Both the position numbers and the translations under genes were made by a program. From the NCBI RefSeq assembly GCF_004104415.1, contig NZ_CP034669.1: a stretch of 64,000 nt of DNA. One strand, written 5' to 3'. The notes below the pieces were generated by a model. The model saw only the letters and a program-made list of their open reading frames with translations. It had not been told where the DNA came from and made no database searches. This document shows positions 13,306 through 28,752 of this stretch, one piece after another (positions within the stretch are counted from its first letter, which is position 1; every line of letters begins with the position of its first letter). The DNA is from Corallococcus coralloides. GTDB taxonomy: Bacteria; Myxococcota; Myxococcia; Myxococcales; Myxococcaceae.

Positions 13306-13404
13306 GGCAGCCGACCGAGCACCGCTCGGAAACTTCCCAAGCCTTGCGCCCGCCCGATAGGATGTGGCGGTTTTCACTGCACTTTTTGCTGGGTGAAGGG
13401 CTTC

Positions 13405-16400
13405 ATGGAGCGTCGCGTCCTCATCGTCGAAAGCCAGAACGACTTCGCACTCAGCATGGCCTCCGTGCTCAAGAGCGCGGGCTACAACACGGCCATGGCC
13501 ACCACTGCGTCAGACGCGCAGCGGGAATTGGAGAAGCGCCGACCAGACCTCGTCGTCGTGCGCGCGGAGCTGCCGGACCAGTCCGGCTTCGCCCTCTGTG
13601 GGCAGATCAAGAAGGGCAAGTGGGGCCAGAACCTCAAGGTCCTCCTGCTCTCCTCCGACTCCGGCGTGGAGGGTCTGAACAAACACCGTGAGACGCCGGC
13701 CGCCGCGGACGGCTACCTCGTCATCCCGTTCGAGATGGGCGAGCTGGCCTCCATGAGCACGGGCATCGTGCCGCCCGGCTCCGACGAATCCGACGCGGAC
13801 CTGGACGCCGCGCTCTCCGGTGCGCCGCGTGAAGCCCCGCCGCCCATGCCCGGCGTGCGCACGGGCGCCCCGCCCAAGCTGCCCAAGCGCGAGCGCCGCA
13901 GCGCGATGACGGACGAGGACAAGTCCTTCATGGACCGGGCCTTCTCATCCATCGCGGACCGCAAGGCGGAGCTGCTGGCGGAGTCGCGTCAGCTGAAGCG
14001 CCCGCCCCCGCGCCGCGAGCTGATGGGCACGCCCGAGGGCAAGATTCAAATCCTCCGGGACGAGCTGAAGACGCGCGAAGCCCAGCTCGCGCGCCTGTCG
14101 GAGATCTGGAGCGTCCGCGAGCGCGAGCTGCTCTCCGTCGAGGACCGCCTCCACGAGAAGGACGTGGAGCTGCAGGGCCTGAAGATGCAGGTCGACGACC
14201 TGCTCAGGCGCTTCAACGACGCGCAGCAGTCCATCGTCCAGAAGGAGCGCGAGCACGGCGCCACCGTGGACGACCTGCTCCTCCAGAAGTTCTCCTCGGA
14301 GAAGGACCTCATCGAGGTCGTCGCCTCCAAGGAGAAGGACATCAACGTCCTGCGCAAGGAGGTCAACCTCCGCGACGAGGAGCTGGCCCGGCGCGGCGCG
14401 GATCTGGAGTCCTGGCGCAACGAGTTCGACAAGCTGGAGAAGCACCTCGGCGTCGTCACGCTGGAGTTCGAGGTCAAGGAGCAGAAGCTCCAGGACACCG
14501 TCCGCGCCAACGAGGCGGACATCCTCCAGCTGCGCGAGCGCGGCGATCAGTTCGAGTCCGAGCTGGCCCGCACCGTCAGCGAGCGCGACCAGCGCTATGC
14601 CGAGCTGGACGGCGAGCTCCAGGCCCTCCAGGAGCGGCTGACGCAGACGGAGCAGGAGCGCGACGCCACCGTGCGCGGCCTGGAGGCCCGGGCCACGACG
14701 GCGGAGGAGCACGCCAGCCGCTCGGACGCGGAGATTGAGCGCCTCAACGCCGAGCGCGCCGCCCTGGAGCAGCGCCTCACGCAGCAGGTGGCGGACCTGG
14801 AGTCCGACATCGCGCGCGTCACCGGCGAGCGCGACCAACTCCGGCTGGACAAGGACGCCCTGGAGGCGGACCTCACGCAGCGCGTGGAGGAGCGGGACGC
14901 GAAGCTCTCCGCGCTCGACCGCGAGCTGCAGGAGGCCATCGCCCGCAACGAGAACAGCGAGGCGGAGCTCAACGCCACCATCCAGCAGCACCGCGAGCGC
15001 ATCGGTGAGCTGGAAGGCGAAGTCGAGGCCGTCAAGACGCACCTGGAGGACCGCGAGAACGAGCTGACCGCGGAGCTCCAGGCGCTGCAGCAGGCCAAGG
15101 ACGCGCTGGAGCAGGACCTCACCAGCCAGCTGGAGGACCTGCGCGCGGCGAAGGACGCCCTGGAGGCGGACCTCAACGGCCAGATTCAGGCGCTCACCGA
15201 GCAGCTGGACGCGTCCCAGCGCCAGGGCGAACAGCTCTCCGCGCGCGTGGCCTCGCTCGAGGACACCGTCGCCCAGCGCGACGGCACCATCGAGGGCCTG
15301 CAGACCGACGTCTCCGACCGCGACGCCCGCATCGCCGAGCTGACCGGCAACCTGGAGGCCACGAGCCAGCAGCTCTCCGAGACGCAGAACACGCTCTCCA
15401 GCACGGAGGCCACCCTCGCGGAGACGCGCGGCGAGCTGGAGGCGACGAGCCAGCAGCTCTCCGAGACGCAGGGCACGCTCTCCAACACGGAGGCCACCCT
15501 CGCGGAGACGCGCGGCGAGCTGGAGGCCACCAGCCAGCAGCTCTCCGAGACGCAGACGCGCCTGGCCCAGACGGAGGAGACGCTCTCCACCACGCGCGGC
15601 GAGCTGGAGGCCACCAGCCAGACGCTGGCCACCACCGAGGCGACCCTCGCGGACACGCAGGGCACGCTGGCGCGCACGGAAGGAACGCTCGCCGACACGC
15701 AGGCGACCCTGTCCAGCACCGAAGGCACGCTGGCGGAGACGCGCGGCGAGCTGGAGGCCACCAGCCAGACCCTGGCGGACACCCAGTCCAGGCTCGCGCG
15801 GACGGAGGAGACGCTCTCCACCACGCGCGGCGAGCTGGAGGCCACCAGCCAGACGCTGGCGGACACGCAGGCCACGCTCTCCAGCACGGAGGGCACGCTC
15901 GCGGAGACCCGTGGCGAGCTGGAGGCCACCAGCCAGACGCTGACGGACACGCAGGCGAAGCTCGCGCAGACGGAAGGGACGCTCGCGTCCACCCAGGGCG
16001 AGCTGGAGGCCACCAGCCAGACGCTGGCCACCACCGAGTCCACGCTCGCGCAGACGCAGGACACGCTGGCGCGCACGGAAGGAACGCTCGCCGACACGCA
16101 GGCGACGCTGTCCAGCACGGAGGGCACGCTCGCGGAGACGCGCGGTGAGCTGGAGGCTACCAGCCAGACGCTGACGCAGACCCAGGAGACCCTGGAGTCG
16201 ACGCGCGCCGACCTGGCGAAGGTCACCTCGCACCGCGACGAGCTGGACGCGGAGCTCAACGAGACGCGCGACATCCTCCAGGAGACCAACGGCCTCCTCG
16301 CCCGCACCACCGAGGAGCGCGACGCGCGCATCGCGGATCTGGCGGCGCTCAACGCGGCGAAGGACGCGCTGGAGCAGGACCTCACCGGCCAGATTGGCCA

Positions 16401-18000
16401 GCTGCGCGCGGACCTGTCGGAGACGCAGGGCCTCTACGACGCGGAGCGCACCGCCCACGCGGCGCTCGCGGAGGAGACCACCGCGCGCATCCACGCCCTC
16501 ACCGGCGAGCGCGACAACCTGACCGCGGAGCTGAACGCCACCTCGCAGCAGCTGGCCGACACGCAGGGCCAGCTCGCCAGCACCCAGGACGCGCTGGCCC
16601 GCGAGGAGCAGGCCCACGCGCAGTCCCGCCAGGCCGCCGCCAGCGCCCAGGCGGAGCTCACGCGCCAGCTCACCGAGGCCCAGGCCAACGGCGAGGACCT
16701 GGCCGAACAGCTCATCGTCACCAAGCACGAGCTGGGCACGCGCGTGTCGGAAGTCACGCAGCTGTCCTCCACGCTCGCGCAGACGGAGGACGCGCGGCAC
16801 CACCTGGAGGACCGCCTCCAGACGCTCACCCACGAGTCGCAGCGCCGTGAGGAGCTCCTCCAGAACGAGGTCGACACCAAGGGCAAGGAGCTGTCGGACA
16901 CGCTCCGCAAGCTCACGCACGTGACGCAGGAGAAGATGCGTCAGGCGGAGGTGCTCAACCGCGAGGTCTCCACCCGCACGGAGCAGGTGAAGCAGCTGGA
17001 AGGCCAGCTGGAGCACCAGGCCTCCGAGGCGAAGAAGCAGGCGGACGCGCTCCACCAGCAGCTCGCCAACGTCTCCGGCGAGCTGGACGGGGCGCGCAAG
17101 GCCATCGCGGACCGCGACGGACAGCTGCAGCAGGCCGCGAACCAGCAGAAGAAGCTCACCAGCGAGCGCGACGGACTGGCCGGGCAGCTCCAGCAGGCCC
17201 AGGCCCAGGCGCAACAGCAGGCCCAGCAGGCCCAGGCCGCCGCCGCCGAGGCGAAGAAGCAGGCGGACGACCTGGCCGCGAAGCTCGCGAAGGCGGACCA
17301 GCGCATCGCGCAGCTCTCCCAGGAGGCCCAGAAGTTCGCCGCCGACACGGAGGCGAAGCTCAAGGACGCCCAGGCCCAGCTGCAGACCCGCACCAAGAAG
17401 GCCCAGGACCTGGAGCTGGCGCTGGAGAACGCCCAGAGCACCCGCGCCCGCGCGGAGAAGGACCTCAACGCGCGCGTCGCCGCGGCGGAGACCAAGGCCA
17501 ACGAGGCGGCCTCGAAGCTCGCCACGGCGCAGAAGGACCGCAAGGACCTGGAGGCCCGTCAGGCCAAGGAGCTGGAGGACCTCAACGCCAAGCAGAAGGC
17601 GGAGCTCGAGCGCCGCGAAGCCATCAAGGCGCAGGAGGTCGCCCGCCTCCAGACGTCCGTCCAGGAGAAGAGCAAGGCGCTCAAGGTCGCCGAGCTGGAG
17701 CTGGCCCGCTACAAGTCCAAGGCCCCGGCCGCCGCCCCCGCCGCGAAGGCCAGCGCCAAGGCCACCGAGGACGAGCACCTGGCCGCCACCGTCCAGGCGA
17801 ACCCGGTCATCCCGGCCGCCGCCAAGCCCCCCGCCAAGGCCACCGCCAGGCCGGCCGCGAAGAAGGCCGCTGCCGCGCCCACCCCCGTCCCCGTGGACGA
17901 GGAGGCCCCGGAGCGCACCATGGTGATGCAGCTGCCCACCGCCCCCGAAGCCGGTGGTGAGGACGACTGGACGGCGCTCGTCGACGAGCTCGACAAGTAG
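13405..18000 (+). CDS. aglZ: AglZ/FrzS-family gliding-motility protein: N-terminal pseudo-receiver domain plus a coiled-coil of about 1350 aa
   Basis: The N-terminus aligns to the FrzS receiver (RRPDLVVVRAELPDQSGFALCGQIKKGKW against FrzS RDRPDLVVLAVDLSAGQNGYLICGKLKKD); an Arg sits where the phospho-acceptor Asp is expected. The rest is heptad-rich coiled-coil with 28-aa repeats. Start is ATG at 13405, with an alternative GTG at 13393. Confidence 0.7.
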   Translation: MERRVLIVESQNDFALSMASVLKSAGYNTAMATTASDAQRELEKRRPDLVVVRAELPDQSGFALCGQIKKGKWGQNLKVLLLSSDSGVEGLNKHRETPAAADGYLVIPFEMGELASMSTGIVPPGSDESDADLDAALSGAPREAPPPMPGVRTGAPPKLPKRERRSAMTDEDKSFMDRAFSSIADRKAELLAESRQLKRPPPRRELMGTPEGKIQILRDELKTREAQLARLSEIWSVRERELLSVEDRLHEKDVELQGLKMQVDDLLRRFNDAQQSIVQKEREHGATVDDLLLQKFSSEKDLIEVVASKEKDINVLRKEVNLRDEELARRGADLESWRNEFDKLEKHLGVVTLEFEVKEQKLQDTVRANEADILQLRERGDQFESELARTVSERDQRYAELDGELQALQERLTQTEQERDATVRGLEARATTAEEHASRSDAEIERLNAERAALEQRLTQQVADLESDIARVTGERDQLRLDKDALEADLTQRVEERDAKLSALDRELQEAIARNENSEAELNATIQQHRERIGELEGEVEAVKTHLEDRENELTAELQALQQAKDALEQDLTSQLEDLRAAKDALEADLNGQIQALTEQLDASQRQGEQLSARVASLEDTVAQRDGTIEGLQTDVSDRDARIAELTGNLEATSQQLSETQNTLSSTEATLAETRGELEATSQQLSETQGTLSNTEATLAETRGELEATSQQLSETQTRLAQTEETLSTTRGELEATSQTLATTEATLADTQGTLARTEGTLADTQATLSSTEGTLAETRGELEATSQTLADTQSRLARTEETLSTTRGELEATSQTLADTQATLSSTEGTLAETRGELEATSQTLTDTQAKLAQTEGTLASTQGELEATSQTLATTESTLAQTQDTLARTEGTLADTQATLSSTEGTLAETRGELEATSQTLTQTQETLESTRADLAKVTSHRDELDAELNETRDILQETNGLLARTTEERDARIADLAALNAAKDALEQDLTGQIGQLRADLSETQGLYDAERTAHAALAEETTARIHALTGERDNLTAELNATSQQLADTQGQLASTQDALAREEQAHAQSRQAAASAQAELTRQLTEAQANGEDLAEQLIVTKHELGTRVSEVTQLSSTLAQTEDARHHLEDRLQTLTHESQRREELLQNEVDTKGKELSDTLRKLTHVTQEKMRQAEVLNREVSTRTEQVKQLEGQLEHQASEAKKQADALHQQLANVSGELDGARKAIADRDGQLQQAANQQKKLTSERDGLAGQLQQAQAQAQQQAQQAQAAAAEAKKQADDLAAKLAKADQRIAQLSQEAQKFAADTEAKLKDAQAQLQTRTKKAQDLELALENAQSTRARAEKDLNARVAAAETKANEAASKLATAQKDRKDLEARQAKELEDLNAKQKAELERREAIKAQEVARLQTSVQEKSKALKVAELELARYKSKAPAAAPAAKASAKATEDEHLAATVQANPVIPAAAKPPAKATARPAAKKAAAAPTPVPVDEEAPERTMVMQLPTAPEAGGEDDWTALVDELDK
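15340..16215. repeat. In-frame tandem repeats of about 84 bp (28 aa) inside the aglZ-like coiled-coil
   Basis: Protein repeat ETRGELEATSQ(Q/T)L(S/A)(E/D)TQ.TL(S/A).TE(A/G)TLA iterated at least 10 times. These are coding repeats, not a CRISPR array. Confidence 0.6.
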
Positions 18001-18499: not shown

Positions 18500-19450
18500 T
18501 TGACGGGCGTGAGCCCCCCTCGACTGACTTCGGAGATCCGCTCGTTCACCAGCGTGGAGGACGCGGCGCGTCGCCTGGAGGCGGTGGGCTACCTGTCGTC
18601 TCCTGAAATCGCCACGGCGGTGTTCCTGGCGGACCGGATGGGCAAGCCCATCCTGGTGGAGGGCCCGGCCGGCGTGGGCAAGACGGAGCTGGCCAAGGCC
18701 CTGGCGCAGGCGCTGGATCGGACCTTCCTCCGGCTCCAGTGCTACGAGGGCCTGGACGAGGCCAAGGCCCTCTACGAGTGGGAGTACGCCAAGCAGCTGC
18801 TCTACACGCAGCTGCTCAAGGACAAGATTGGCGAGCTGACGCAGGGCACGGCCACGCTGGCGGAGGCCGCGGACCGGCTCGCGTCCGGCGACGCGGTGTT
18901 CTTCTCCGAGCGCTTCCTCCTCCCCCGCCCCATCCTCCAGGCCCAGCTGTCGGACACGCCCGCGCTGCTGCTGGTGGACGAAATCGACAAGGCGGATCCG
19001 GAGTTCGAGGCCTTCCTCCTGGAGGTCCTCTCTGACAACGCTGTCACGGTGCCGGAGCTGGGGACCATCAAGGCGAAGCATGTCCCGCGCGTCATCCTCA
19101 CCAGCAACAACGCCCGCGAGCTGTCGGACGCGCTCAAGCGCCGCTGCCTGCACCTGCACATCGACTTCCCGGACCGCGAGCGCGAGCTGAGAATCGTCCG
19201 CTCGCGCCTGCCGGAGGTCCCCCAGGTGCTGGCCGAGCAGGTGGTGGAGGCCGTCGCCGCCATCCGCGCGCTGGACTTGAAGAAGGCCCCGTCCATCAGC
19301 GAGACGCTGGACTGGGCGCAGAGCCTGGCGCTGCTCAACGCGGAAGCCCTCAGCGCGGACGTCGTCGCCGCCACGCTCAACCTCGTCCTCAAATACGAAG
19401 GCGACATCGAGAAGGCCCGCGCCAACCTGCCCACCATCGCGCAGGCCTGA
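18500..19450 (+). CDS. MoxR-like AAA+ ATPase
   Basis: Walker A GPAGVGKT, Walker B LLLVDEIDKA, sensor VILTSNN, and the MoxR/CbbQ-type C-terminal helical domain. TTG start at 18500 (GTG at 18509 is an alternative). Confidence 0.75.
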   Translation: MTGVSPPRLTSEIRSFTSVEDAARRLEAVGYLSSPEIATAVFLADRMGKPILVEGPAGVGKTELAKALAQALDRTFLRLQCYEGLDEAKALYEWEYAKQLLYTQLLKDKIGELTQGTATLAEAADRLASGDAVFFSERFLLPRPILQAQLSDTPALLLVDEIDKADPEFEAFLLEVLSDNAVTVPELGTIKAKHVPRVILTSNNARELSDALKRRCLHLHIDFPDRERELRIVRSRLPEVPQVLAEQVVEAVAAIRALDLKKAPSISETLDWAQSLALLNAEALSADVVAATLNLVLKYEGDIEKARANLPTIAQA

Positions 19451-19574
19451 CGCAGAGCGCCGCGGATAAAGGACACCGGACAGGCGATCGTTGGCGTTTC
19501 ACGCTTTGCGCTCCCGGTGTGCCTGGGTACAAGTTCCTCAGCTGTCCCACCCCTAGCCCGAGAGGAACACCCCG

Positions 19575-20525
19575 ATGAGCTCGACCTCATCCACCGTGCT
19601 GCGCGCCGAACACATCTGGCTCGATGGGAAGCTGATGAAATGGGACGAGGGCAACGTGCATGTGATGACGCACGCCCTCCACTACGGCCTCGGCGTCTTC
19701 GAGGGCATCCGCGCCTACAAGACCCATGATGGCCGACTCGCCGTCTTCCGGCTGCGCGAGCACATCCGCCGCCTGCTCGACTCAGCGCACATCATCATGC
19801 TGCAGATTCCCTACAGCGAGGATGAGCTGATCGAAGCCACGGTGGACCTGCTGCGCAAGCAGAAGCAGCAGTTCGCCAACGGCGCCTACCTGCGCCCGGT
19901 GGCCTTCATGGGCGACGGCGCCATGGGCCTGGGCGCGGTGAACCCCACCCGCGTGGGCATCACCGCCTGGGACTGGGGCGCGTACCTGGGTGACAAGGGC
20001 ATCAAGGAGGGCATCCGCGCCAAGGTCAGCTCCTTCACGCGCAACCACGTGAACGTGAACATGGTGCGCGGGAAGATCACCGGCCAGTACGTGAACTCCA
20101 TCCTCGCCAAGCGCGAGGCGGTGATGGCCGGCTACGACGAGGCCATCCTCCTGGACATCAGCGGCTTCGTCGCGGAGGCCTCGGGCGAAAACATCTTCAT
20201 GGTGAACAAGAAGGGCATCATCAAGACGCCGCCCCTCTCCTCCCCCGTCCTGGACGGCATCACCCGCGACACGGTGCTCAAGCTGCTGAAGGACGCCGGC
20301 CACACCACCATCGAGGAGGTCACCGTCACCCGTGACGCCCTCTACATCGCCAACGAGGTCTTCTTCACCGGCACCGCCGCGGAGATCACCCCCGTGCGCG
20401 AGGTGGACAACCGGCAGATTGGCGACGGCAAGCCCGGCCCCATCAGCAAGTTCGTCCAGGACATGTACTTCCGCGTCGTGCGGGGCCAGGAAGCCCGCTA
20501 TGCGGACTGGCTGACCTACGTTTGA
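19575..20525 (+). CDS. ilvE: Branched-chain amino acid aminotransferase
   Basis: Full-length class IV aminotransferase with the canonical IlvE blocks (HALHYGLGVFEGIRAY, the region carrying the PLP lysine, and TGTAAEITPVREVD). Confidence 0.9.
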   Translation: MSSTSSTVLRAEHIWLDGKLMKWDEGNVHVMTHALHYGLGVFEGIRAYKTHDGRLAVFRLREHIRRLLDSAHIIMLQIPYSEDELIEATVDLLRKQKQQFANGAYLRPVAFMGDGAMGLGAVNPTRVGITAWDWGAYLGDKGIKEGIRAKVSSFTRNHVNVNMVRGKITGQYVNSILAKREAVMAGYDEAILLDISGFVAEASGENIFMVNKKGIIKTPPLSSPVLDGITRDTVLKLLKDAGHTTIEEVTVTRDALYIANEVFFTGTAAEITPVREVDNRQIGDGKPGPISKFVQDMYFRVVRGQEARYADWLTYV

Positions 20526-20584
20526 GGACAGTCGGCGGACGTGAAGTCCCGGCGGACGGGGGAATCGGGTAGAACCCGTACCCG

Positions 20585-21922
20585 ATGCCTCCCGCCGGCT
20601 ACGCGTACGAAGACAATCCCTTCAAGCTGGAGAACCCGTCCGTCCTCGACATCGCTCCAGGTGAGCCGAAGTCGCTGGAGGACACGGGCCTGAGGATGGG
20701 CCTGCTCGCGGACCTGGGCCTCAAGTTCCTCTACTACGCCGGCACCGGGACGGGCGTGGCCATCGCCGAAAGCATGTGCCTGCCCTGGTCCGGCGTGGTG
20801 GAGCACGTGGTGGACTTCCTCGCCGCGGAGAAGCTCGTGGACCTGCGCGGCGGCAAGGGCTTTGGCCGCGCGTCCGTGGAGTTCGCCCTCACGGAGAAGG
20901 GCCGCGAGTACGCGCGTGACGCCCTCACCCGCTCCACCTACGTGGGCCCCGCCCCCGTCCCGATTGAGCAGTACAACGCCCTCATCAGCAGCCAGACGGA
21001 GGAGACGCCCGTCGTGGGCCAGGAGGACCTGGTCTCCGCCCTGGGCCACCTCACCGTCTCCGCGGAGCTGATGGACAAGCTGGGCCCGGCCGTGAACTCC
21101 GGCCGCTCGCTCTTCCTCTATGGCCCGCCGGGCAACGGCAAGACGAGCCTGGCGGAGGCGATTTCCCACATGTTCGGCGGCGAGGTCTTCGTCCCGCACT
21201 GCCTGGAAATCGACAATCAGATCATCAAGGTCTTCGACCGCATCATCCACACGCCCGTGTCGCTGGAGGCGGGTCGCGACGCCAACGGCCGCCGGCAGAC
21301 CTTCGAAATGGACAAGCGCTGGTCGCTCTGCCGGCGCCCCGCGGTGGTGGTGGGCGGCGAGCTGACGCTGGAGACCCTGGATCTCATCTACTCGGAGAGC
21401 ACCCGCTTCTACGAGGCGCCGTTCCAGGTGAAGGCCAACGGCGGCATGCTCCTCATCGACGACTTCGGCCGCCAGAAGGTCCACCCCACGGACCTGCTCA
21501 ACCGCTGGATCGTCCCCCTGGAGAAGCGGGTGGACTTCCTCACCCTGCACACCGGCAAGAAGTTCGAGATTCCGTTCGATCAGCTGCTCGTCTTCTCCAC
21601 CAACCTGGACCCCAAGGAGCTGGTGGACGAGGCCTTCCTGCGGCGCATCAAGTACAAGATTGAAGTGGGCAACCCGGATGAGGAGTCCTACCGGGAGATC
21701 TTCCGCCGGGTGTGCGAGGCGGCGGGCATCCCCTACGTGGACCAGGCCATCACCTACCTGGTGGAGCACTACTACAAGCCGCGCAGCATGGAGATGCGCT
21801 CCTGCCACCCCCGCGACCTCGTGTCGCTCATCCGGGACGCCGCCCGATACCGGCAAATCCCGCCAGCCCTTTCAAAAGACCTGCTGGACCAGGCGTGCGA
21901 GGTGTTCCTGGTGAATCTCTAG
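20585..21922 (+). CDS. AAA+ ATPase with an N-terminal winged-helix-like domain (function unknown; DnaC/IstB-like Walker B)
   Basis: Walker A GPPGNGKTSLAEAI, Walker B MLLIDDFGRQ, sensor-1 LLVFSTN, Arg-finger region FLRRIKYKIEVG. The N-terminal approximately 150 aa are predicted helical. Confidence 0.7.
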   Translation: MPPAGYAYEDNPFKLENPSVLDIAPGEPKSLEDTGLRMGLLADLGLKFLYYAGTGTGVAIAESMCLPWSGVVEHVVDFLAAEKLVDLRGGKGFGRASVEFALTEKGREYARDALTRSTYVGPAPVPIEQYNALISSQTEETPVVGQEDLVSALGHLTVSAELMDKLGPAVNSGRSLFLYGPPGNGKTSLAEAISHMFGGEVFVPHCLEIDNQIIKVFDRIIHTPVSLEAGRDANGRRQTFEMDKRWSLCRRPAVVVGGELTLETLDLIYSESTRFYEAPFQVKANGGMLLIDDFGRQKVHPTDLLNRWIVPLEKRVDFLTLHTGKKFEIPFDQLLVFSTNLDPKELVDEAFLRRIKYKIEVGNPDEESYREIFRRVCEAAGIPYVDQAITYLVEHYYKPRSMEMRSCHPRDLVSLIRDAARYRQIPPALSKDLLDQACEVFLVNL

Positions 21923-22042
21923 TCGGGTTTTATTTGTTCCAACCGCGCGGAATTTCTAGACTCCGCGTGCCGTTGTACCTCCCGGCGCAGCCTCTGAGAA
22001 CCAGCGCCCGGGGCGGGCCGGAGCGAGAAGGAGCCGCAGTCC

Positions 22043-22882
22043 GTGAAGGAACGCTACCAGGACATCGACGAGAAGAACGAGCAGCTGCGCGAGTACCTTG
22101 AGATCTACAAGGGCAAGCCGCCAGCGCGTGAGTACCTCGACCGCTTCGAGATGTCGTGGATCTACCACGACGCCGCGCTCGAAGGCGTCGTGTACACGCA
22201 CCAGGAGCTGATGGCCGCGCTCTTCCCGGAGCGCACGGCGGCGGAAGCCTCCATGATCCCGGTGGTGCTGGAGATCCGCAACCACAAGGCGGTGGCGGAC
22301 TTCATCCGCGAGGAGGCCGCGGGCGCGAAGAAGCAGTCCGCGCTCACGCTCACCACCATCAAGCGGATGCACGACCTCTTCCTGGGCAACACGCCGGAAG
22401 CCCTGGCCGAGCGTGCGCGCATGGAGCGCCGCGAGCGCACGGAGAAGGAGCTGGCCAAGGAGCGCGACCGCGCGGGGCTGCGCAAGGACATGCCCCTGCA
22501 CCGCACCTACTTCCACGACATCACCCAGCCCGCGAAGATCCAGGCCCGGCTGGAGAAGCTCGTGGACCACACCGCCAGCGCGGAGTTCCGCGAGTTCCAC
22601 CCCATCAAGCAGGCGGCGGTGGTGCAGCACGAGTTCCTGCAGATCTTCCCCTTCACCGAGCACAGCGGGAAGGTGGGGCGCATGTGCAGCAACCTCATCC
22701 TGCTGCGCAACGGCTACATGCCCGCCGTCATCCACTCCATCGACCGGCAGCGCTACTACGAGTCCTTCCGCGCGCCCGTGGCCACGTTCCGCACGGTGCT
22801 GATGGACGCGATGGAGAACTCGCTGGACAACGGCGTGAAGTACTTCCGAGACCTCGGCCGCAAGTACAAGACGGTGGAGTAG
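22043..22882 (+). CDS. Fic/Fido-domain protein with a non-canonical active-site motif (FPFTEHSGKVGR)
   Basis: Aligns to the Fic core (IHPFxDGNGRxxRLLxNLLLLRxGY against IFPFTEHSGKVGRMCSNLILLRNGY). The catalytic His is replaced by Phe. GTG start at 22043. Confidence 0.75.
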   Translation: MKERYQDIDEKNEQLREYLEIYKGKPPAREYLDRFEMSWIYHDAALEGVVYTHQELMAALFPERTAAEASMIPVVLEIRNHKAVADFIREEAAGAKKQSALTLTTIKRMHDLFLGNTPEALAERARMERRERTEKELAKERDRAGLRKDMPLHRTYFHDITQPAKIQARLEKLVDHTASAEFREFHPIKQAAVVQHEFLQIFPFTEHSGKVGRMCSNLILLRNGYMPAVIHSIDRQRYYESFRAPVATFRTVLMDAMENSLDNGVKYFRDLGRKYKTVE

Positions 22883-23071
22883 CGCGGCCCGGGGCGGCGT
22901 GCCCCCGGAGGACTGGCGAGGGAGCAAGCCTCCCACCCGTCCTCCGCCGCGGCGTGAAGAACGCGCGGCACGTCGACACCATTGGGATGTTGGAAACACC
23001 CCTGGAACGTCATGGGGAGGACATCCGACTTCTCGAATCCCCGTGGCGGAGGAAGTAAAAGAAGAGTTCCC

Positions 23072-24193
23072 ATGCCCGTGACCCCGTCCCTCCAAAGCCG
23101 CCGCGCCCAGCTTCCCGCCGGGAGCGAGCTCACGGAGCCTCCGCCAGCGCGGTTGGCGAAGCTGCCCGCCGCCGACAAGCTGGCCCGCCTGCTCCAGGTG
23201 GCCAAGGGTCACCGCCGGGCGCTCATCCTCACCCACGACAACCCGGACCCGGACTCCATGGCGGCGGCGGTGTCGCTCGCCCATCTGCTGGAGCGCAAGG
23301 CCGGCATCGAGGCCCACGTGGGCTACGGCGGCATCATCGGCCGGGCGGAGAACGTCGCCTTCGTGCGCGTGCTCCGGCTGCCGGTGTCGCACGTGTCGCA
23401 GATCGACTTCAGCCAGTACGACCTCTTCGGCCTGGTGGACACGCAGCCGCCGGTGCGCAACCACTCGCTGCCGGCGCGCTACCGCGCGGACCTGGTGGTG
23501 GACCACCACCCGCTGCGCGAGGAGAGCCTGCTGGCCCCCTTCGCGGACGTGGGCGGCGACTTCGGCGCCACCTCCACCATGCTGGCGGAGTACCTGCGGG
23601 CCGCCCGGCTGGAGCCGTCCGTCGAAATCGCCACCGCGCTCTTCTACGGCATCAAGGCGGACACGCGAGACCTGGGCCGTGAGACGACCCAGACGGACGT
23701 GGACTGCTACCTGTGGCTGTTCCCCCGCTGTGACAAGCAGCTCTTGGGACAGATTGAGCACCCGGAGCTGCCGGCGCGCTTCTTCCAGCTGTTCCACACG
23801 TCCATCGAGAAGGCGAAGGTCTACGGCACCGCCATCATCACCGACCTGGAGGAGGTCTACTCCCCGGACCTGGTGGCGGAGGTCGCCGAGCGGATGATGT
23901 ACCTGGAAGGGATGAAGTGGTCCCTGGCCTACGGGACGTACCGCAACCAGCTCTTCTTGAGCCTGCGCGTGAAGGACCGGCGCATGAACGCGGGGCGCCT
24001 CATCCGCGAGCTGTGCGAGGACCTGGGCGGTTCGTCCGGCGGCCACGGCAGCATGGCGGGCGCGCGGCTGCCCCTGTCCGGCAGCGCGAGCAAGCGCAAG
24101 GCGCTCAAGCGCGAGGTGGTGTCGCGCTTCCTCGAAGCCTTCGGTGTCTCCGAGGAGCGGCCGAAGTCGCTGCTGTCCGCGCAGGACACGTGA
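23072..24193 (+). CDS. DHH/DHHA1 family phosphoesterase (NrnA-like nanoRNase/pAp phosphatase)
   Basis: DHH motifs LILTHDNPDPDSMAAAV and VVDHHPL; DHHA1 motif GGHGSMAG. Start taken at MPVTPSL (23072), which has a good RBS; the ORF track's upstream extension is unlikely to be translated. Confidence 0.75.
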   Translation: MPVTPSLQSRRAQLPAGSELTEPPPARLAKLPAADKLARLLQVAKGHRRALILTHDNPDPDSMAAAVSLAHLLERKAGIEAHVGYGGIIGRAENVAFVRVLRLPVSHVSQIDFSQYDLFGLVDTQPPVRNHSLPARYRADLVVDHHPLREESLLAPFADVGGDFGATSTMLAEYLRAARLEPSVEIATALFYGIKADTRDLGRETTQTDVDCYLWLFPRCDKQLLGQIEHPELPARFFQLFHTSIEKAKVYGTAIITDLEEVYSPDLVAEVAERMMYLEGMKWSLAYGTYRNQLFLSLRVKDRRMNAGRLIRELCEDLGGSSGGHGSMAGARLPLSGSASKRKALKREVVSRFLEAFGVSEERPKSLLSAQDT

Positions 24194-25335
24194 TCTACTG
24201 GGACCACAACGCCGCCGCGCCGGTGCGCGCGGAGGTGGGCGCGCTGCTCGCGAGGGCCTTCACGGAGGGCGGCTTCGGCAACGCGTCCAGCGTGCACGGT
24301 GGCGGACGCGAGGCCCGGGCCCGGCTGGACGCGGCGCGAGCGAAGGTGGCGCGCGTCCTGGGCTGTGAGCCGAAGGAGCTCACCTTCACCGCGTCAGGCA
24401 GTGAAGCGGACGCGCTCGCGCTGGTGGGAGCGTACGCGGCCCGCCCGGTGAAGGACCGCCGCCGCGTGGTGTCCACCACGGTGGAGCACCCGTCAGCGCT
24501 GGGCGCGCTCACGCAGTTGGAGAAGGACGGCGCCCAGGTGGTGCGGCTGGCGCCTGATTCCAACGGCCGGGTGCCGCTGGAGGCCGTGCTGGAGGCGCTC
24601 ACGCCGGACACCGCGCTGTGTTCGCTGATGTGGGCCAACAACGAGACGGGCGTGCTGCAGCCGGTGGCGGAGACCGCGCGCGCGTGCCGTCAGCGCGGCA
24701 TCCTCTTCCACACGGACGCCGTGCAGGCCGCGGGCAAGGTGCCGCTCACCTTGCGCGAAGTGGACGCGGACCTGCTCTCCCTCTCCGCGCACAAGTTCGG
24801 GGGCCCCCAGGGCGTGGGCGTGCTCGTGGTGCGCAAGGGCGTGGACGTGCGGGCGCTGACCCCCGGGCACCAGGAGGGAGGCCGGCGCGGAGGCACGCAG
24901 AACGTGCCCTACGCGGAGGCCCTGGCCCTGGCCCTGGAGCTGGCCGCCGCGGAGCAATCCAGCACCGCCGCGAGGGTCGCGGCCCTGCGAGACACCTTCG
25001 AACAGCAGGTGCTCCAGCGGCTGCCCGGGGTGACGGTGAACGGCGCTGGCGCGCCCCGGGTGCCCAACACCAGCAACCTGCGCTTCGAGGGCGTGGAGGG
25101 GGAAGCGCTGCTGATGGCGCTGGACCTGGAGGACATCCGCGTCTCGTCGGGTGCGGCCTGCGCCTCCGGCACGCTGTCCCCGTCCCACGTGCTGCGCGCC
25201 ATGGGCCTCTCCCCCGCCGAGGCGCGCTCGAGCCTGCGCTTCAGCCTGGGCCCCAGCACCACCGGCGCGGAGGTCTCCCGCGTCGTGGACGCGCTGTGCA
25301 CGCAGGTGCCCCGGGTGCGCGCCCTCGGAGGCTGA
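24190..25335 (+). CDS. Cysteine desulfurase (IscS/NifS-like class V aminotransferase)
   Basis: The track ORF 23917..25335 is over-extended. A GTG at 24190 (VIYWDHNAAAPV, the IscS-like N-terminus) overlaps the DHH stop as GTGA. PLP lysine is in SAHKFGGPQG; catalytic Cys is in SSGAACASG. Confidence 0.8.
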   Translation: MIYWDHNAAAPVRAEVGALLARAFTEGGFGNASSVHGGGREARARLDAARAKVARVLGCEPKELTFTASGSEADALALVGAYAARPVKDRRRVVSTTVEHPSALGALTQLEKDGAQVVRLAPDSNGRVPLEAVLEALTPDTALCSLMWANNETGVLQPVAETARACRQRGILFHTDAVQAAGKVPLTLREVDADLLSLSAHKFGGPQGVGVLVVRKGVDVRALTPGHQEGGRRGGTQNVPYAEALALALELAAAEQSSTAARVAALRDTFEQQVLQRLPGVTVNGAGAPRVPNTSNLRFEGVEGEALLMALDLEDIRVSSGAACASGTLSPSHVLRAMGLSPAEARSSLRFSLGPSTTGAEVSRVVDALCTQVPRVRALGG

Positions 25336-25368
25336 GGCCCGCGCCTGGAAGCAGGCCTCGGGGACGGC

Positions 25369-25542
25369 TCACCACTTCTGGTCCGGCAGGTTCTTCTCGC
25401 GGACCTCGGGGTCGGGCTGGCCGTAGCCGGGGATGCCCTCCCTGGCCTCATCGGGCTTGGGCGGGAGCCGCTCGTCGCCGTGCCGCGTCTCGCGGGTGGG
25501 CTGCTCCTGCTCGGGCTGCTGCTGCTTTCGCTCGGTCGCCAT
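25369..25542 (-). CDS. Small hydrophilic hypothetical protein (57 aa)
   Basis: MATERKQQQPEQEQPTRETRHGDERLPPKP... preceded by GGGAGGAG, with near-uniform G/C at codon position 3. It lies downstream of the kinase on the same strand. Confidence 0.4.
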   Translation of the reverse strand: MATERKQQQPEQEQPTRETRHGDERLPPKPDEAREGIPGYGQPDPEVREKNLPDQKW

Positions 25543-25650
25543 GGACTCCTCCCGGTGCATGTTCGCGGGAGGAAAGGTCATCATCCAGGGCAGGCGCCGC
25601 AGCGGGCTCCACCGGCTGGGAGCCCACGCGACAGGGCCCTGCCCGCCCGG

Positions 25651-26646
25651 CTACCCGTTGTCGTCAGAAGAAGGGCCGTTGGGCGGAGCGCCCCGGTACG
25701 CGGGCATCTCGTCCGTGGTGCCGAACAGGCCGCGCACCACCGCCGCGATGGCCAGCGGCGTCCCCACGTTCTCGTCGAAGTGCGGAGACAGCGCCTTCGC
25801 GTACTCCTCCGCGGACGAGAAGCGGTCCTCGGGGTTCTCCGCGAACGCGCGCGCCAGCACGTCGTCCAGCGCCTGCGGGATGTCCGGACGCACCGAGCGC
25901 AGGAGCCGGTACTTGCGCGACAGGATGCCCGCGAAGACCTCCTCCGGCGTCGAGCCCACGAAGGGCCGGCTCAGCGTGAGCAGCTCGTAGAGCACCACGC
26001 TCGCGGCCCACAGGTCCGCCTCCGGCGTGACGGCGCCCTGCAGCGACTCCGGGGACAGGTAGTACGGCTTGCCCAGCACCTCGCCGCCCTGGAGCTTGCC
26101 GTCCACCAGCACGCGCGACACGCCGAAGTCGCCCAGCTTGATCTCCCCCACGCGGGAGATGAACAGGTTGGACGGGGACACGTCGCAGTGGACGATGCCC
26201 AGCGGCTTGCCGTCCGGGCCGGTGGCGGTGTGCGCGTACGCGAGCGCCTCCAGCAGCACCTTCGCCAGGTACACCGCGAAGTCGACGGGGAGCGGAATCC
26301 CGCGCGCCTTGCACCGGCGCAGGATGTGGCCCAGGTCGCGCCCGTCCACCAGGTCCATCACCAGGAAGGACACGTCGTCCAGCATCCCGGCGTCCAGCAC
26401 CTTCACGATGTTCGGGTGGTCCAGCTGGCGCGACAGCTGCGCCTCGCGGCGGAAGAGGTCCACCGACGCCGGGTCGCGGGTGAGCGCGGGCAGCAGCCGC
26501 TTGAGCGCGACCGTCCAGCCTTCGTAGGGACCGGAGCGCACGCGCGCGCGGTACACCTCGGCCATGCCGCCCTTGCCCAGCAGCGATTGGATTTCGTAGT
26601 TGCCGAAGACGCGGATGGGCTTCGGCACGGGAGTCGGCGCGTTCAC
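25651..26646 (-). CDS. Hanks-type Ser/Thr protein kinase with an atypical catalytic loop (HCDVSPSN; non-RD, lacks the loop Lys)
   Basis: Gly-loop LGKGGMAEVY, VALK lysine, DFG (LGDFGVS) and SPE are all present. The catalytic loop reads HCDVSPSN instead of HRDLKPxN. Confidence 0.8.
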   Translation of the reverse strand: MNAPTPVPKPIRVFGNYEIQSLLGKGGMAEVYRARVRSGPYEGWTVALKRLLPALTRDPASVDLFRREAQLSRQLDHPNIVKVLDAGMLDDVSFLVMDLVDGRDLGHILRRCKARGIPLPVDFAVYLAKVLLEALAYAHTATGPDGKPLGIVHCDVSPSNLFISRVGEIKLGDFGVSRVLVDGKLQGGEVLGKPYYLSPESLQGAVTPEADLWAASVVLYELLTLSRPFVGSTPEEVFAGILSRKYRLLRSVRPDIPQALDDVLARAFAENPEDRFSSAEEYAKALSPHFDENVGTPLAIAAVVRGLFGTTDEMPAYRGAPPNGPSSDDNG

Positions 26647-27644: not shown

Positions 27645-28015
27645 GTCGGGGACCCGGGCATCATAGAAGTCCACGGGGCGGCTTGTAAACGCGCGAGGAC
27701 GGCTTGACCGCACGCTTCTCCATCCTTATCATTTTTCCAGAACGCCCTGGGATTTTCCCAGTGATTCTAAGGACTTGTAGCGAGCTTTGAAGCAGTAAAG
27801 GTCTGTTCCCTGCGGGGTGCGTGATGCCCAGCAGAAATTCGAACCGATACGTCCATTCCGGGGTCCGTTTCGGTCGCCATGTGCAAGCCCTCCCCCTTCA
27901 CCGGGGATGAGGGAAGCCTGCGGTGACATGATTTCGGTCCCCACCTGGCTTCTAAGGGTTCAATGGACGCTGGACACACGGCTCGGCGGGGGACTCTTTC
28001 TTTGGAGCGGCGGCG

Positions 28016-28648
28016 GTGAGCGAGACGGCGGCGGATACGGTGGCGGCGGCGGCGGAGAAGAAGGTAACGCTTCGTGAGGAGCTGACGGCGCGCCGCAAGG
28101 CGATGACCAATGACCTCATCGACGAGCGTGGCCTCAAGGTCCAGTCTCGATTCCTGGCATCGCCCTACTATCAGAATGCGCGGACGGTAGCCCTCTACGC
28201 CCCCATCCGGGGCGAGGTGCCTACCCGGGACATCCTCATCGCGGCGCTGCAGGACGAGAAGATCGTCTGCTACCCGCTGTCCCACGTGCACGGGCGCATC
28301 CTGGCCTTCCGGGCCATCAAGTCGGAGAGCGAGCTGGAGCCGGGACGCCTGGGCGTCCGGGAGCCCACGAACTCCTCGGATTTGATCGCGGTGGATCAGA
28401 TCGACCTGTTCGTGGTGCCCGGCCTGGGCTTCAGCCCGGACGGCAAGCGGCTGGGGCGCGGCGGTGGCTACTACGACGCCACCCTCAAGGCGGCCAGCTC
28501 GCGCAGCCGCCGGGTGGGGCTGGCCTTCAACGACCAGATCGTCCAGGTGCTGCCCACGACGAGCGACGACGTGGACATGGACCAGATCGTCACGGAGAGC
28601 CAGACGCTGCGCGGCCTGTGCCGCAGCTTCGACTTCCTGGACACCTGA
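28016..28648 (+). CDS. 5-formyltetrahydrofolate cyclo-ligase (MTHFS/YgfA family)
   Basis: Family blocks are present (YAPIRGEVP, FVVPGLGFSPDGKRLGRGGGYYD). GTG start. Confidence 0.8.
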   Translation: MSETAADTVAAAAEKKVTLREELTARRKAMTNDLIDERGLKVQSRFLASPYYQNARTVALYAPIRGEVPTRDILIAALQDEKIVCYPLSHVHGRILAFRAIKSESELEPGRLGVREPTNSSDLIAVDQIDLFVVPGLGFSPDGKRLGRGGGYYDATLKAASSRSRRVGLAFNDQIVQVLPTTSDDVDMDQIVTESQTLRGLCRSFDFLDT

Positions 28649-28752
28649 CCGGTACCTGAGCCGCGGGACAGGCGGGGTGACAGCCACGGGTGGGGCGGAC
28701 ATGGAAGTCCCGCCCTGCCCGTCGTCTTTTTTGGGCTAGTGTCCGCGGCGCC

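What the first reader, a model, noticed from the sequence alone, without database searches (positions are those of the whole stretch)
20585..25335. Cluster of WH-AAA+ ATPase, catalytically degenerate Fic, DHH/DHHA1 phosphoesterase and translationally coupled cysteine desulfurase
Four same-strand genes follow ilvE:
- an AAA+ ATPase with a DnaC/IstB-like Walker B and an N-terminal winged-helix-like domain
- a Fic protein lacking the catalytic His
- an NrnA-like DHH/DHHA1 nuclease or phosphatase
- an IscS-like cysteine desulfurase whose GTG start overlaps the DHH stop (GTGA)
The tight coupling of a nucleic-acid or nucleotide phosphoesterase with a sulfur-mobilising enzyme is reminiscent of sulfur-modification machineries for nucleic acids. 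I do not recognise this particular combination as a described system. A MoxR-type AAA+ ATPase sits on the other side of ilvE.
Basis: inference. Interest (0 to 1): 0.6.

Follow-up and report, generated by a model that had tools for sequence, protein, structure and literature searches.

The report
Myxobacterial pseudo-Fic, DHH, desulfurase operon
The four genes are real. Three of them (a catalytically dead Fic-like protein, a DHH phosphoesterase and an extra NifS-type cysteine desulfurase) form a gene block conserved across myxobacteria, its joint function is unknown, and nothing indicates DNA or RNA sulfur modification.

Summary
After ilvE come four + strand genes: a winged-helix AAA+ ATPase (20585-21922), a Fic protein whose catalytic His is Phe (22043-22882), a DHH/DHHA1 phosphoesterase (23072-24193) and a class-I cysteine desulfurase (24190-25335). 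The desulfurase GTG start overlaps the DHH stop (GTGA).

- **Conserved core:** I compared 85 non-redundant related loci. Fic lies upstream of this DHH subfamily in 50/50 loci, and the desulfurase lies directly downstream in 53/59. The 4-nt overlap is kept in 50/74. An endonuclease IV gene sits between Fic and DHH in 38/50 loci, and the window keeps only a relic of it.
- **ATPase is separable:** it is adjacent in cultured Myxococcaceae/Archangiaceae genera, but upstream in only 5/37 loci overall. It also occurs without the trio in other myxobacterial MAGs and in about 70 Chloroflexota genomes.
- **Desulfurase is accessory:** M. xanthus has iscS and sufS in separate operons elsewhere.
- **Not Dnd/Ssp:** no Dnd or Ssp partner genes are present, and the DHH protein has no conserved cysteine.
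- **Neighbourhood:** ilvE, 6S RNA-ygfA and tyrS flank the block and are also syntenic housekeeping genes.

Verdict: this is a clade-conserved, probably co-translated operon of known enzyme families with an unresolved joint role. Moderate interest.

The parts
20585..21922 (+). Winged-helix + AAA+ ATPase (445 aa). It is a neighbour of the conserved block, not an obligate part of it.
22043..22882 (+). Fic-fold protein lacking the catalytic His (pseudo-Fic). It keeps a FICD-like inhibitory-helix motif (ALEG).
   Evidence: Pfam Fic. The FICD alignment places F at the His position. The His position is F or Y in every homologue where the motif was located, down to 37% identity. It lies upstream of the DHH gene in 50/50 loci.
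22942..23058 (+). Relic of the 3' end of an endonuclease IV (nfo) gene in the Fic-DHH spacer.
   Evidence: tblastn against the intact Nfo of L084: 50% identity over 34 aa, E 8e-4. The translation ...GMLETPLERHGEDIRLLESPWRRK* matches the Nfo C-terminus. An intact nfo occupies this position in 38/50 related loci.
23072..24193 (+). DHH/DHHA1 phosphoesterase (373 aa), a divergent stand-alone subfamily.
   Evidence: Pfam DHH + DHHA1. The motifs THDNPDPD, VDTQ, DHHP, GIKxDxRD and GGHGxMAGAR are at least 95% conserved in 81 sequences. Matches to solved NrnA, TmPDE, GdpP and family II PPase are all weak, at most 33 bits.
24190..25335 (+). Accessory class-I (NifS-like) cysteine desulfurase (381 aa). 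Its GTG start overlaps the DHH stop.
   Evidence: Aminotran_5, E 1e-61. NifS TIGR03402 scores 410 bits, below its 530 cut-off; IscS about 300 bits, DndA 296, SufS 100. The catalytic Cys324 is 100% conserved and the PLP-Lys motif KFGGP is conserved. It is adjacent to DHH in 53/59 loci.
19575..20525 (+). ilvE (branched-chain aminotransferase), the upstream syntenic neighbour.
   Evidence: Pfam Aminotran_4. Upstream in 27/37 related loci. Identified as MXAN_2987 in M. xanthus (PMC11980068).

Best explanation
There are two separable things here.

**(1) The conserved block.** It runs pseudo-Fic, (nfo, now a relic in this genome), DHH/DHHA1 phosphoesterase, NifS-like cysteine desulfurase.
- It is an operon-like unit conserved in Myxococcaceae/Archangiaceae-like myxobacteria.
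- The DHH and desulfurase genes are almost certainly co-transcribed. They are probably translationally coupled, because the 4-nt stop/start overlap is conserved.

**Working model (inferred, not shown).**
- This is a maintenance operon for nucleic-acid and nucleotide turnover.
- The DHH enzyme would hydrolyse short phosphoester substrates such as nanoRNA, pAp or 5' ends. Ancestrally it sat beside the AP endonuclease Nfo.
- The desulfurase is a third, accessory sulfur donor. It would hand persulfide sulfur to acceptors encoded elsewhere, for example for tRNA or cofactor thiolation. It would not pass sulfur to the DHH protein.
- The His-less Fic cannot transfer AMP. At most it binds a nucleotide or a partner protein.

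**(2) The ATPase.** The winged-helix AAA+ ATPase is an independent, widely distributed and probably hexameric protein of unknown function. It is only a neighbour of the block, although that adjacency is conserved in cultured Myxococcaceae and Archangiaceae.

The cluster is not a Dnd/Ssp-type sulfur-modification or defence system.
For: **Shown**
- Gene identities and motifs.
- Counts over 85 non-redundant loci carrying this DHH subfamily: Fic upstream in 50/50, desulfurase adjacent in 53/59, Nfo between Fic and DHH in 38/50, ATPase upstream in 5/37.
- The 4-nt DHH/desulfurase overlap is kept in 50/74 loci, while desulfurase identity ranges from 39 to 77%.
- The same gene order occurs in M. xanthus, Archangium violaceum, Stigmatella and another Myxococcaceae genome.
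- The trio occurs without the ATPase.
- The ATPase occurs without the trio: followed by a GNAT-like ORF in L007, L009, L010 and L019, and in about 70 Chloroflexota loci.
- An nfo relic lies in the window, and nfo shows decay in L005, L104 and L102.
- The DHH catalytic motifs and the desulfurase Cys324 are conserved, so both are probably active enzymes.
- M. xanthus encodes iscS and sufS in separate operons elsewhere (PMC9973013).
- The flanks are housekeeping genes: ilvE, 6S RNA, 5-FTHF cyclo-ligase and TyrRS.

**Inferred**
- Co-transcription, the substrates of both enzymes, and the role of the pseudo-Fic.
Against: - No experiment or co-occurrence beyond adjacency ties the three proteins to one pathway, or separates them.
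- A 4-nt overlap conserved over this much divergence is also what a stoichiometric, physically interacting pair would show. That would argue for a shared pathway rather than mere co-expression.
- The whole neighbourhood is syntenic in this clade, which weakens adjacency as evidence of any functional link.
- The loci came from pattern-based scans ranked by similarity to one DHH sequence. Lineages are therefore unevenly sampled, and I could not examine phyla outside the myxobacteria-like clade for the DHH/desulfurase pair.
- The DHH substrate is unknown. Similarity to every characterised DHH enzyme is weak.
Confidence: 0.55

Rival explanations
1. Dedicated joint pathway. The DHH phosphoesterase and the NifS-like desulfurase act on the same RNA or nucleotide substrate, for example in tRNA thiolation or its repair, or in turnover of thio-nucleotides. 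The pseudo-Fic would act as regulator or adaptor.
For: - The pair is adjacent in 53/59 loci, and the 4-nt overlap is conserved in 50/74 despite 39-77% desulfurase identity.
- Fic is always upstream (50/50).
- The desulfurase is an accessory copy. From established knowledge, accessory copies in other bacteria usually sit next to their dedicated partner, as with B. subtilis YrvO-MnmA and NifZ-ThiI.
- The DHH profile weakly matches the DHH region of A-adding tRNA nucleotidyltransferases (NF041569, E 2e-4).
Against: - The DHH protein has no conserved Cys to accept a persulfide.
- No ThiI, MnmA, TusA, rhodanese or NifU-type acceptor lies within the 64-kb window regions scanned.
- DHH stays intact in the three loci that lack the adjacent desulfurase (L008, L090, L092).
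- The flanking housekeeping genes are equally syntenic.
Confidence: 0.22
2. The cluster has no functional meaning. The genes are adjacent only through inherited synteny of housekeeping genes in closely related genomes.
For: - The ilvE, STK/TPR, 6S RNA-ygfA, ymdB and tyrS flanks are conserved in the same loci.
- The ATPase and nfo come and go.
- Public annotations are generic.
Against: - The Fic-DHH-desulfurase core is more constant (100% and 90%) than the flanks (ilvE 27/37, ATPase 5/37).
- It persists where Fic identity has fallen to 37-45% and desulfurase identity to 39-50%.
- The stop/start overlap is maintained.
- Together these indicate selection for at least co-expression.
Confidence: 0.18
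3. Nucleic-acid sulfur modification or defence system of the Dnd/Ssp phosphorothioation type, or a novel analogue. The desulfurase would act as DndA/SspA, and the AAA+ ATPase and DHH nuclease as accessory or restriction components.
For: - The PADLOC SspA and DndA models match the desulfurase (395 and 392 bits).
- The ATPase gives weak hits to the anti-phage IetA/IteA models.
- The Fic protein gives weak hits to PDC-S04 and SoFic.
Against: - Those PADLOC models match any IscS-like protein.
- The curated DndA model scores 296 bits against a 480 cut-off.
- Solved DndA (200 bits) and SspA (156 bits) are more distant than IscS/NifS proteins (250-260 bits).
- No DndBCDE or SspBCD homologues lie nearby.
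- IteA scores 39.6 bits against a 510 cut-off.
- The locus is a stable, vertically inherited housekeeping neighbourhood, with GC like its surroundings and no mobile-element signs.
- The ATPase is dispensable for the block.
Confidence: 0.04

Closest known systems
Accessory class-I (NifS/IscS-like) cysteine desulfurases encoded next to a dedicated partner (B. subtilis YrvO-MnmA, NifZ-ThiI; M. tuberculosis IscS-MnmA)
   Same: It is a short (about 380 aa) NifS-like enzyme with the PLP-Lys and catalytic-Cys loop. It is present in addition to the housekeeping ISC and SUF desulfurases, and it is tightly linked to one specific neighbouring gene.
   Different: The linked gene is a DHH/DHHA1 phosphoesterase with no conserved Cys and no adenylation or thiolation domain. 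No known sulfur acceptor is nearby, and partnership with DHH proteins has not been described (literature search).
NrnA-type stand-alone DHH/DHHA1 phosphoesterases (nanoRNase/pAp phosphatase; TmPDE TM1595, Rv2837c/CnpB)
   Same: The two-domain architecture and size are the same, all DHH and DHHA1 (GGGH-type) catalytic motifs are kept, and the full-length profile alignment is to TmPDE.
   Different: Sequence similarity is only marginal (at most 33 bits) and is equal to that with family II pyrophosphatases and GdpP. The protein has a variable N-terminal extension of about 40 aa and motif I reads DNPDPD. Its substrate is unknown.
FICD/HYPE-like class II Fic AMP-transferases
   Same: It has the Fic fold with an N-terminal inhibitory-helix motif (xxxxEG), and the best solved-structure match is FICD (E 7e-13).
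   Different: The catalytic His is replaced by Phe or Tyr, and the GNG anion-hole residues are altered (E-H/N-S-G-K/R), in every family member where the motif was located. AMP transfer is therefore not expected.
DndA/SspA desulfurases of DNA phosphorothioation systems
   Same: It belongs to the same class-I desulfurase fold and chemistry.
   Different: It scores below the DndA family cut-off, has no DndBCDE or SspBCD partners, and sits in a housekeeping chromosomal context.
Uncharacterised hexameric AAA+ protein Q8U0N8 of Pyrococcus furiosus (PDB 8p49), and LonB/NtrC/MoxR-type AAA+ modules
   Different: Identity is only 16%. The function of 8p49 is unknown, and no protease or sigma-54 interaction domain is present here.

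Membership tests
Dnd DNA phosphorothioation system (DndA-E) | Desulfurase reaches the DndA family score (TIGR03235 cut-off 480 bits) | tested here: not met
   296.2 bits. The solved DndA 3vax scores 200 bits, against 250-260 bits for IscS-type chains.
Dnd DNA phosphorothioation system (DndA-E) | dndBCDE genes (DndC PAPS-reductase-like, DndD SMC-like ATPase, DndE) clustered with or near the desulfurase | tested here: not met
   Pfam scans of the genes called between 287 and 42265 that were submitted find none of these. The neighbouring ATPase is a classical AAA+, not SMC/ABC-like.
Ssp phosphorothioation system (SspABCD) | SspA accompanied by SspB, SspC and SspD | tested here: not met
   No such neighbours. 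The solved SspA 6m4j scores only 156 bits. The PADLOC SspA hit (395 bits) is matched equally by its DndA model, so it is not specific.
Housekeeping IscS (ISC machinery) | IscS equivalog score (TIGR02006 cut-off 643; PRK14012 cut-off 548) and iscU/iscA/hscBA/fdx neighbours | tested here: not met
   297 and 307 bits. No ISC genes are nearby. The protein ends at residue 381 and lacks the C-terminal tail of the 404-aa IscS. [quoted passage not shown]
NifS (TIGR03402) | Score at or above the 530.75-bit cut-off, and a NifU partner | tested here: not met
   NifS is the best-scoring family but reaches only 410.6 bits. No NifU-like gene is nearby.
SufS (SUF machinery) | Class-II desulfurase signature (TIGR01979 cut-off 475) | tested here: not met
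   100.5 bits.
NrnA nanoRNase/pAp phosphatase | Stand-alone DHH + DHHA1 architecture with intact catalytic motifs | tested here: met
   Pfam DHH + DHHA1. The motifs are at least 95% conserved in 81 sequences.
NrnA nanoRNase/pAp phosphatase | Orthology to characterised NrnA, and nanoRNA/pAp hydrolysis | tested here: inconclusive
   The profile against PDB gives Rv2837c/NrnA at 26 bits, TmPDE at 33, and family II PPase at 33. No NCBIfam NrnA model was hit. Enzyme activity cannot be tested here.
Fic AMP-transferases | Active-site motif HxFx(D/E)GNGRxxR with the catalytic His | tested here: not met
   The motif is FPFTEHSGKVGR in the window. F or Y occupies the His position in every homologue where the motif was located.
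AAA+ ATPases | Walker A, Walker B, arginine finger and AAA+ fold | tested here: met
DnaC/IstB (initiator/loader clade of AAA+) | Closest structural and sequence similarity to initiator-clade ATPases | tested here: not met
IetA/IteA anti-phage ATPase | NF042959 score at or above 510 bits | tested here: not met
   39.6 bits. The PADLOC IetA hits, about 40 bits, are confined to P-loop segments.

The most novel reading that the evidence does not exclude
The pseudo-Fic, DHH phosphoesterase and accessory NifS-like desulfurase, ancestrally with endonuclease IV, would form a previously undescribed myxobacterial pathway. In it the desulfurase and the phosphoesterase form a complex and act on one nucleic-acid or nucleotide substrate. 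Examples would be installing, removing or recycling a thiolated nucleotide, or repairing sulfur-modified RNA or DNA. The His-less Fic would act as a nucleotide-sensing regulator.
Probability: 0.12. Interest if true: 0.7.

Novelty: new variant of a known kind. Interest (0 to 1): 0.4.

Why it matters
Accessory cysteine desulfurases normally reveal their pathway through the gene next to them. Here the constant neighbours are a DHH phosphoesterase and a Fic protein that lost its catalytic histidine long ago. Neither partnership has been described. If the link is functional, it would define a new sulfur-trafficking or nucleic-acid maintenance route in myxobacteria and give a role to a conserved Fic pseudoenzyme. 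If it is not, the locus is a useful caution: it shows that deep synteny, and even a conserved stop/start overlap, can arise within a housekeeping neighbourhood. Separately, the winged-helix AAA+ ATPase belongs to a large family shared by Myxococcota and Chloroflexota that remains entirely uncharacterised.

Tried and rejected
- **Source contig:** an exact look-up of the window ATPase found nothing on record.
- **First AF2 run:** an alignment of close homologues (at least 76% identity) gave an unusable ATPase model, pLDDT 43. It was replaced by a run with diverse representatives, pLDDT 90.
- **Genome scan:** the 25-sequence ATPase alignment A3 was too diverse to derive search patterns. The 7-sequence A4 worked.
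- **afdb50 fold library:** not available.
- **Promoter/terminator scan of 19400-25800:** no + strand signals that would delimit transcription units.
- **Literature:** searches for a DHHA1 + cysteine desulfurase link, and for NrnA in Myxococcus, found nothing relevant. The supplement of the M. xanthus Tn-seq preprint is not held.
- **DHH as persulfide acceptor:** rejected, because it has no conserved Cys.
- **PADLOC SspA/DndA hits as evidence of a phosphorothioation system:** rejected, because the models are not specific and the partner genes are absent.
- **'DnaC/IstB-like' label for the ATPase:** rejected on fold ranking.


Full report
**What is in the window**

The window is about 70% GC. 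Its proteins are 90-98% identical to Corallococcus and Myxococcus proteins, so it comes from a Corallococcus-like myxobacterium. The + strand carries these genes:

| Coordinates | Gene | Notes |
|---|---|---|
| 13393-18000 | AglZ-like response-regulator/coiled-coil protein | |
| 18500-19450 | MoxR-type AAA+ | |
| 19575-20525 | ilvE | |
| 20585-21922 | AAA+ ATPase | 445 aa |
| 22043-22882 | Fic protein | 279 aa |
| 23072-24193 | DHH/DHHA1 protein | 373 aa from the ATG; the longer TTG ORF from 22982 is not supported by relatives |
| 24190-25335 | class-I cysteine desulfurase | 381 aa |

These assignments rest. The desulfurase GTG (24190-24192) overlaps the DHH TGA (24191-24193). An AGGA lies 4 nt upstream of that GTG. 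The Fic motif reads FPFTEHSGKVGR where AMP-transferases have HxFx(D/E)GNGRxxR, and the FICD alignment places Phe at the catalytic His.

**The ATPase**

- An AF2 model built with a diverse alignment is confident (pLDDT 90, pTM 0.85).
- The rest is an AAA+ module with a beta-rich insertion between Walker A and Walker B.
- Next come LonB (15.1), NtrC/FleQ (about 14) and MoxR/CbbQ (13.5). DnaA and Hda score only 11.7.
- The winged-helix observation is supported. The DnaC/IstB flavour is not.
- The family is large, with 863 clusters (50% identity) at E<1e-30.
- Its nearest non-myxobacterial relatives, at about 50% identity, are in Chloroflexota.

**Is the cluster a unit?**

I ran two collection scans.

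*Scan 1: ATPase relatives in species-representative genomes (loci L004-L083).*
- The full order ilvE-ATPase-Fic-DHH-desulfurase appears only in Myxococcus-like genomes (L001-L005).
- Five Myxococcaceae/Archangiaceae MAGs have no Fic, DHH or desulfurase in the downstream sequence held for each locus: a full 10 kb for L007 and L010, less for L006, L009 and L019. L006, L007 and L010 show ilvE directly upstream of the ATPase. In L007, L009, L010 and L019 a GNAT-like ORF follows the ATPase.
- About 70 Chloroflexota loci and one Vicinamibacteria locus lack all three genes. Their commonest neighbour is a glycerophosphodiester phosphodiesterase (36/71 loci).

*Scan 2: relatives of the DHH protein in metagenomes (L087-L166), plus contigs encoding DHH homologues.* Counts below are over the 85 non-redundant loci from all scans and look-ups that carry this DHH subfamily.

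| Feature | Count |
|---|---|
| Fic upstream of DHH | 50/50 |
| Desulfurase directly downstream of DHH | 53/59 (3 more within 1.7 kb; 3 absent: L008, L090, L092) |
| Endonuclease IV gene between Fic and DHH | 38/50 |
| ATPase upstream | 5/37 |
| ilvE upstream | 27/37 |

- The DHH stop and desulfurase start overlap by 4 nt in 50 of 74 loci. Most of the remainder have gaps of 1-66 nt. Desulfurase identity to the window ranges from 39 to 77% and Fic identity from 37 to 89%.
- The ATPase is adjacent in cultured genera: M. xanthus, Archangium violaceum, Stigmatella and another Myxococcaceae genome.
- The ATPase and the trio each occur without the other.
- The conserved core is therefore pseudo-Fic, (nfo), DHH, desulfurase.

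**An nfo relic**

The 189-nt Fic-DHH spacer of the window still encodes the last ~35 codons of nfo...GMLETPLERHGEDIRLLESPWRRK*, at 22942-23058. Related loci show intact, truncated or frameshifted nfo. The ancestral block therefore included nfo, and nfo has been lost repeatedly. It is not required for whatever keeps the other three genes together.

**Nature of the three core proteins**

*Desulfurase*
- It keeps the PLP-lysine motif (KFGGP). The catalytic Cys324 is present in 60/60 sequences.
- It scores best against NifS (410 bits, below the 530 cut-off). IscS scores about 300 bits, DndA 296 (cut-off 480) and SufS 100.
- Solved DndA and SspA are more distant than IscS-type chains.
- M. xanthus encodes iscSUA-hscBA-fdx at MXAN_5001-5006 and sufS within MXAN_1153-1158 (PMC9973013). 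The ilvE of this locus is MXAN_2987 (PMC11980068).
- This is therefore a third, accessory desulfurase.

*DHH protein*
- It keeps all catalytic motifs.
- It is only marginally similar (at most 33 bits) to any solved DHH enzyme. It is equidistant from family II pyrophosphatases, TmPDE, GdpP and Rv2837c/NrnA.
- 'NrnA-like' describes its architecture, not established orthology.
- It has no conserved cysteine, so it is unlikely to be a persulfide acceptor.

*Fic protein*
- F or Y occupies the His position in every family member where the motif was located, including the most distant.
- It keeps the Glu/Asp, one Gly, a Lys/Arg and the final Arg of the motif, and an ALEG inhibitory-helix motif.
- It is a long-standing pseudoenzyme that may still bind a nucleotide. 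That last point is inference.

**Context**

- Downstream lie a divergent Ser/Thr kinase and a TPR gene.
- A 6S RNA gene lies at 27804-27996 (Rfam 68 bits), directly upstream of 5-formyltetrahydrofolate cyclo-ligase. This is the classic ssrS-ygfA linkage. TyrRS follows.
- Most relatives also carry ymdB here.
- These flanks are syntenic in the same loci. The whole region is a conserved housekeeping neighbourhood.
- No Dnd/Ssp partner genes and no known sulfur acceptors (ThiI, MnmA, TusA, rhodanese, NifU) were found in the genes submitted to Pfam between 287 and 42265.
- Public annotations of the M. xanthus orthologues are generic.
- A Tn-seq preprint reports viable insertions in MXAN_2985 with opposite effects on starvation- and glycerol-induced sporulation. 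By gene numbering this is probably the Fic gene, which is my inference.

**Interpretation**

- *Most likely (about 0.55):* the trio is a co-transcribed, probably translationally coupled operon inside a housekeeping neighbourhood. The DHH enzyme would act on short nucleic-acid or nucleotide phosphoesters. The accessory desulfurase would serve acceptors encoded elsewhere. The ATPase is an independent neighbour.
- *Dedicated joint pathway (about 0.22):* the conserved overlap and the constancy of the core relative to the flanks keep this open.
- *Adjacency without selection (about 0.18):* less likely, for the same reasons.
- *Dnd/Ssp-type sulfur modification or defence (about 0.04):* unlikely.

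**Comparison with known systems and novelty**

All four proteins belong to known families. The constant association of an accessory NifS-like desulfurase with a DHH phosphoesterase and a His-less Fic is not described in the literature I could search. I rate it a new variant of a known kind: an accessory desulfurase with a dedicated neighbour. Interest is moderate. The conservation is real and unexplained, but no mechanism is yet implied, and part of the signal reflects neighbourhood synteny.

Noticed in passing
window 27804-27996 (+): A 6S RNA (ssrS) gene (Rfam RF00013, 68.3 bits, full-length) lies directly upstream of the 5-formyltetrahydrofolate cyclo-ligase gene (28016-28648). This is the classic ssrS-ygfA linkage, here in a myxobacterium.
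   Followed up: partly
window 22942-23058 (+): A relic of the 3' end of an endonuclease IV (nfo) gene sits in the Fic-DHH spacer. Intact nfo occupies this position in most related lineages. It is truncated in Archangium violaceum (L167, 128 aa), internally deleted in L005 and split into three pieces in L102.
   Followed up: yes
window 28648-28690, compared with L001 18149-18937: The ymdB (2',3'-cyclic-nucleotide phosphodiesterase family) gene lies between the 5-FTHF cyclo-ligase and tyrS genes in M. xanthus and most related loci. It is missing in the window, where the gap is only 41 nt, and it is also missing in Stigmatella L168 and in L169.
   Followed up: partly
L011-L083 (Chloroflexota loci): The winged-helix AAA+ ATPase family is widespread in Anaerolineae and Chloroflexia at about 50% identity to the myxobacterial protein. 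A glycerophosphodiester phosphodiesterase-like gene follows it in 36/71 loci. Recurrent neighbours are GT2, GH3-like, Ser/Thr kinase, FHA-wHTH and RecJ genes. Many family members in the representative library carry long N-terminal extensions (up to about 800 aa in total).
   Followed up: partly
window 13393-18000 (+): An AglZ-like protein (receiver domain plus about 1400 aa of coiled coil) contains a long internal array of near-identical TLxxTxGELEATSQ-type repeats. The antisense strand carries long spurious ORFs because of the compositional bias.
   Followed up: no
window 30958-32061 (+) and 32108-38170 (-): A secreted protein with a bacterial EndoU nuclease domain lies next to a 2020-aa bacterial alpha-2-macroglobulin. 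An EndoU-domain gene follows tyrS in L169 as well.
   Followed up: no
L007 11372-11815, L009 3954-4418, L010 11339-11782, L019 2105-2554: In myxobacterial MAGs where the ATPase is not followed by Fic, a conserved ~150-aa ORF (KVRPARRGDA...) follows it instead. I judged it GNAT-like from its sequence only and did not scan it.
   Followed up: no
window 25369-25584 (-): A small 71-aa ORF with high GC3 and no Pfam hit lies between the desulfurase and the kinase gene. Small ORFs of 56-86 aa are called at the same position in M. xanthus, Archangium and L169.
   Followed up: no
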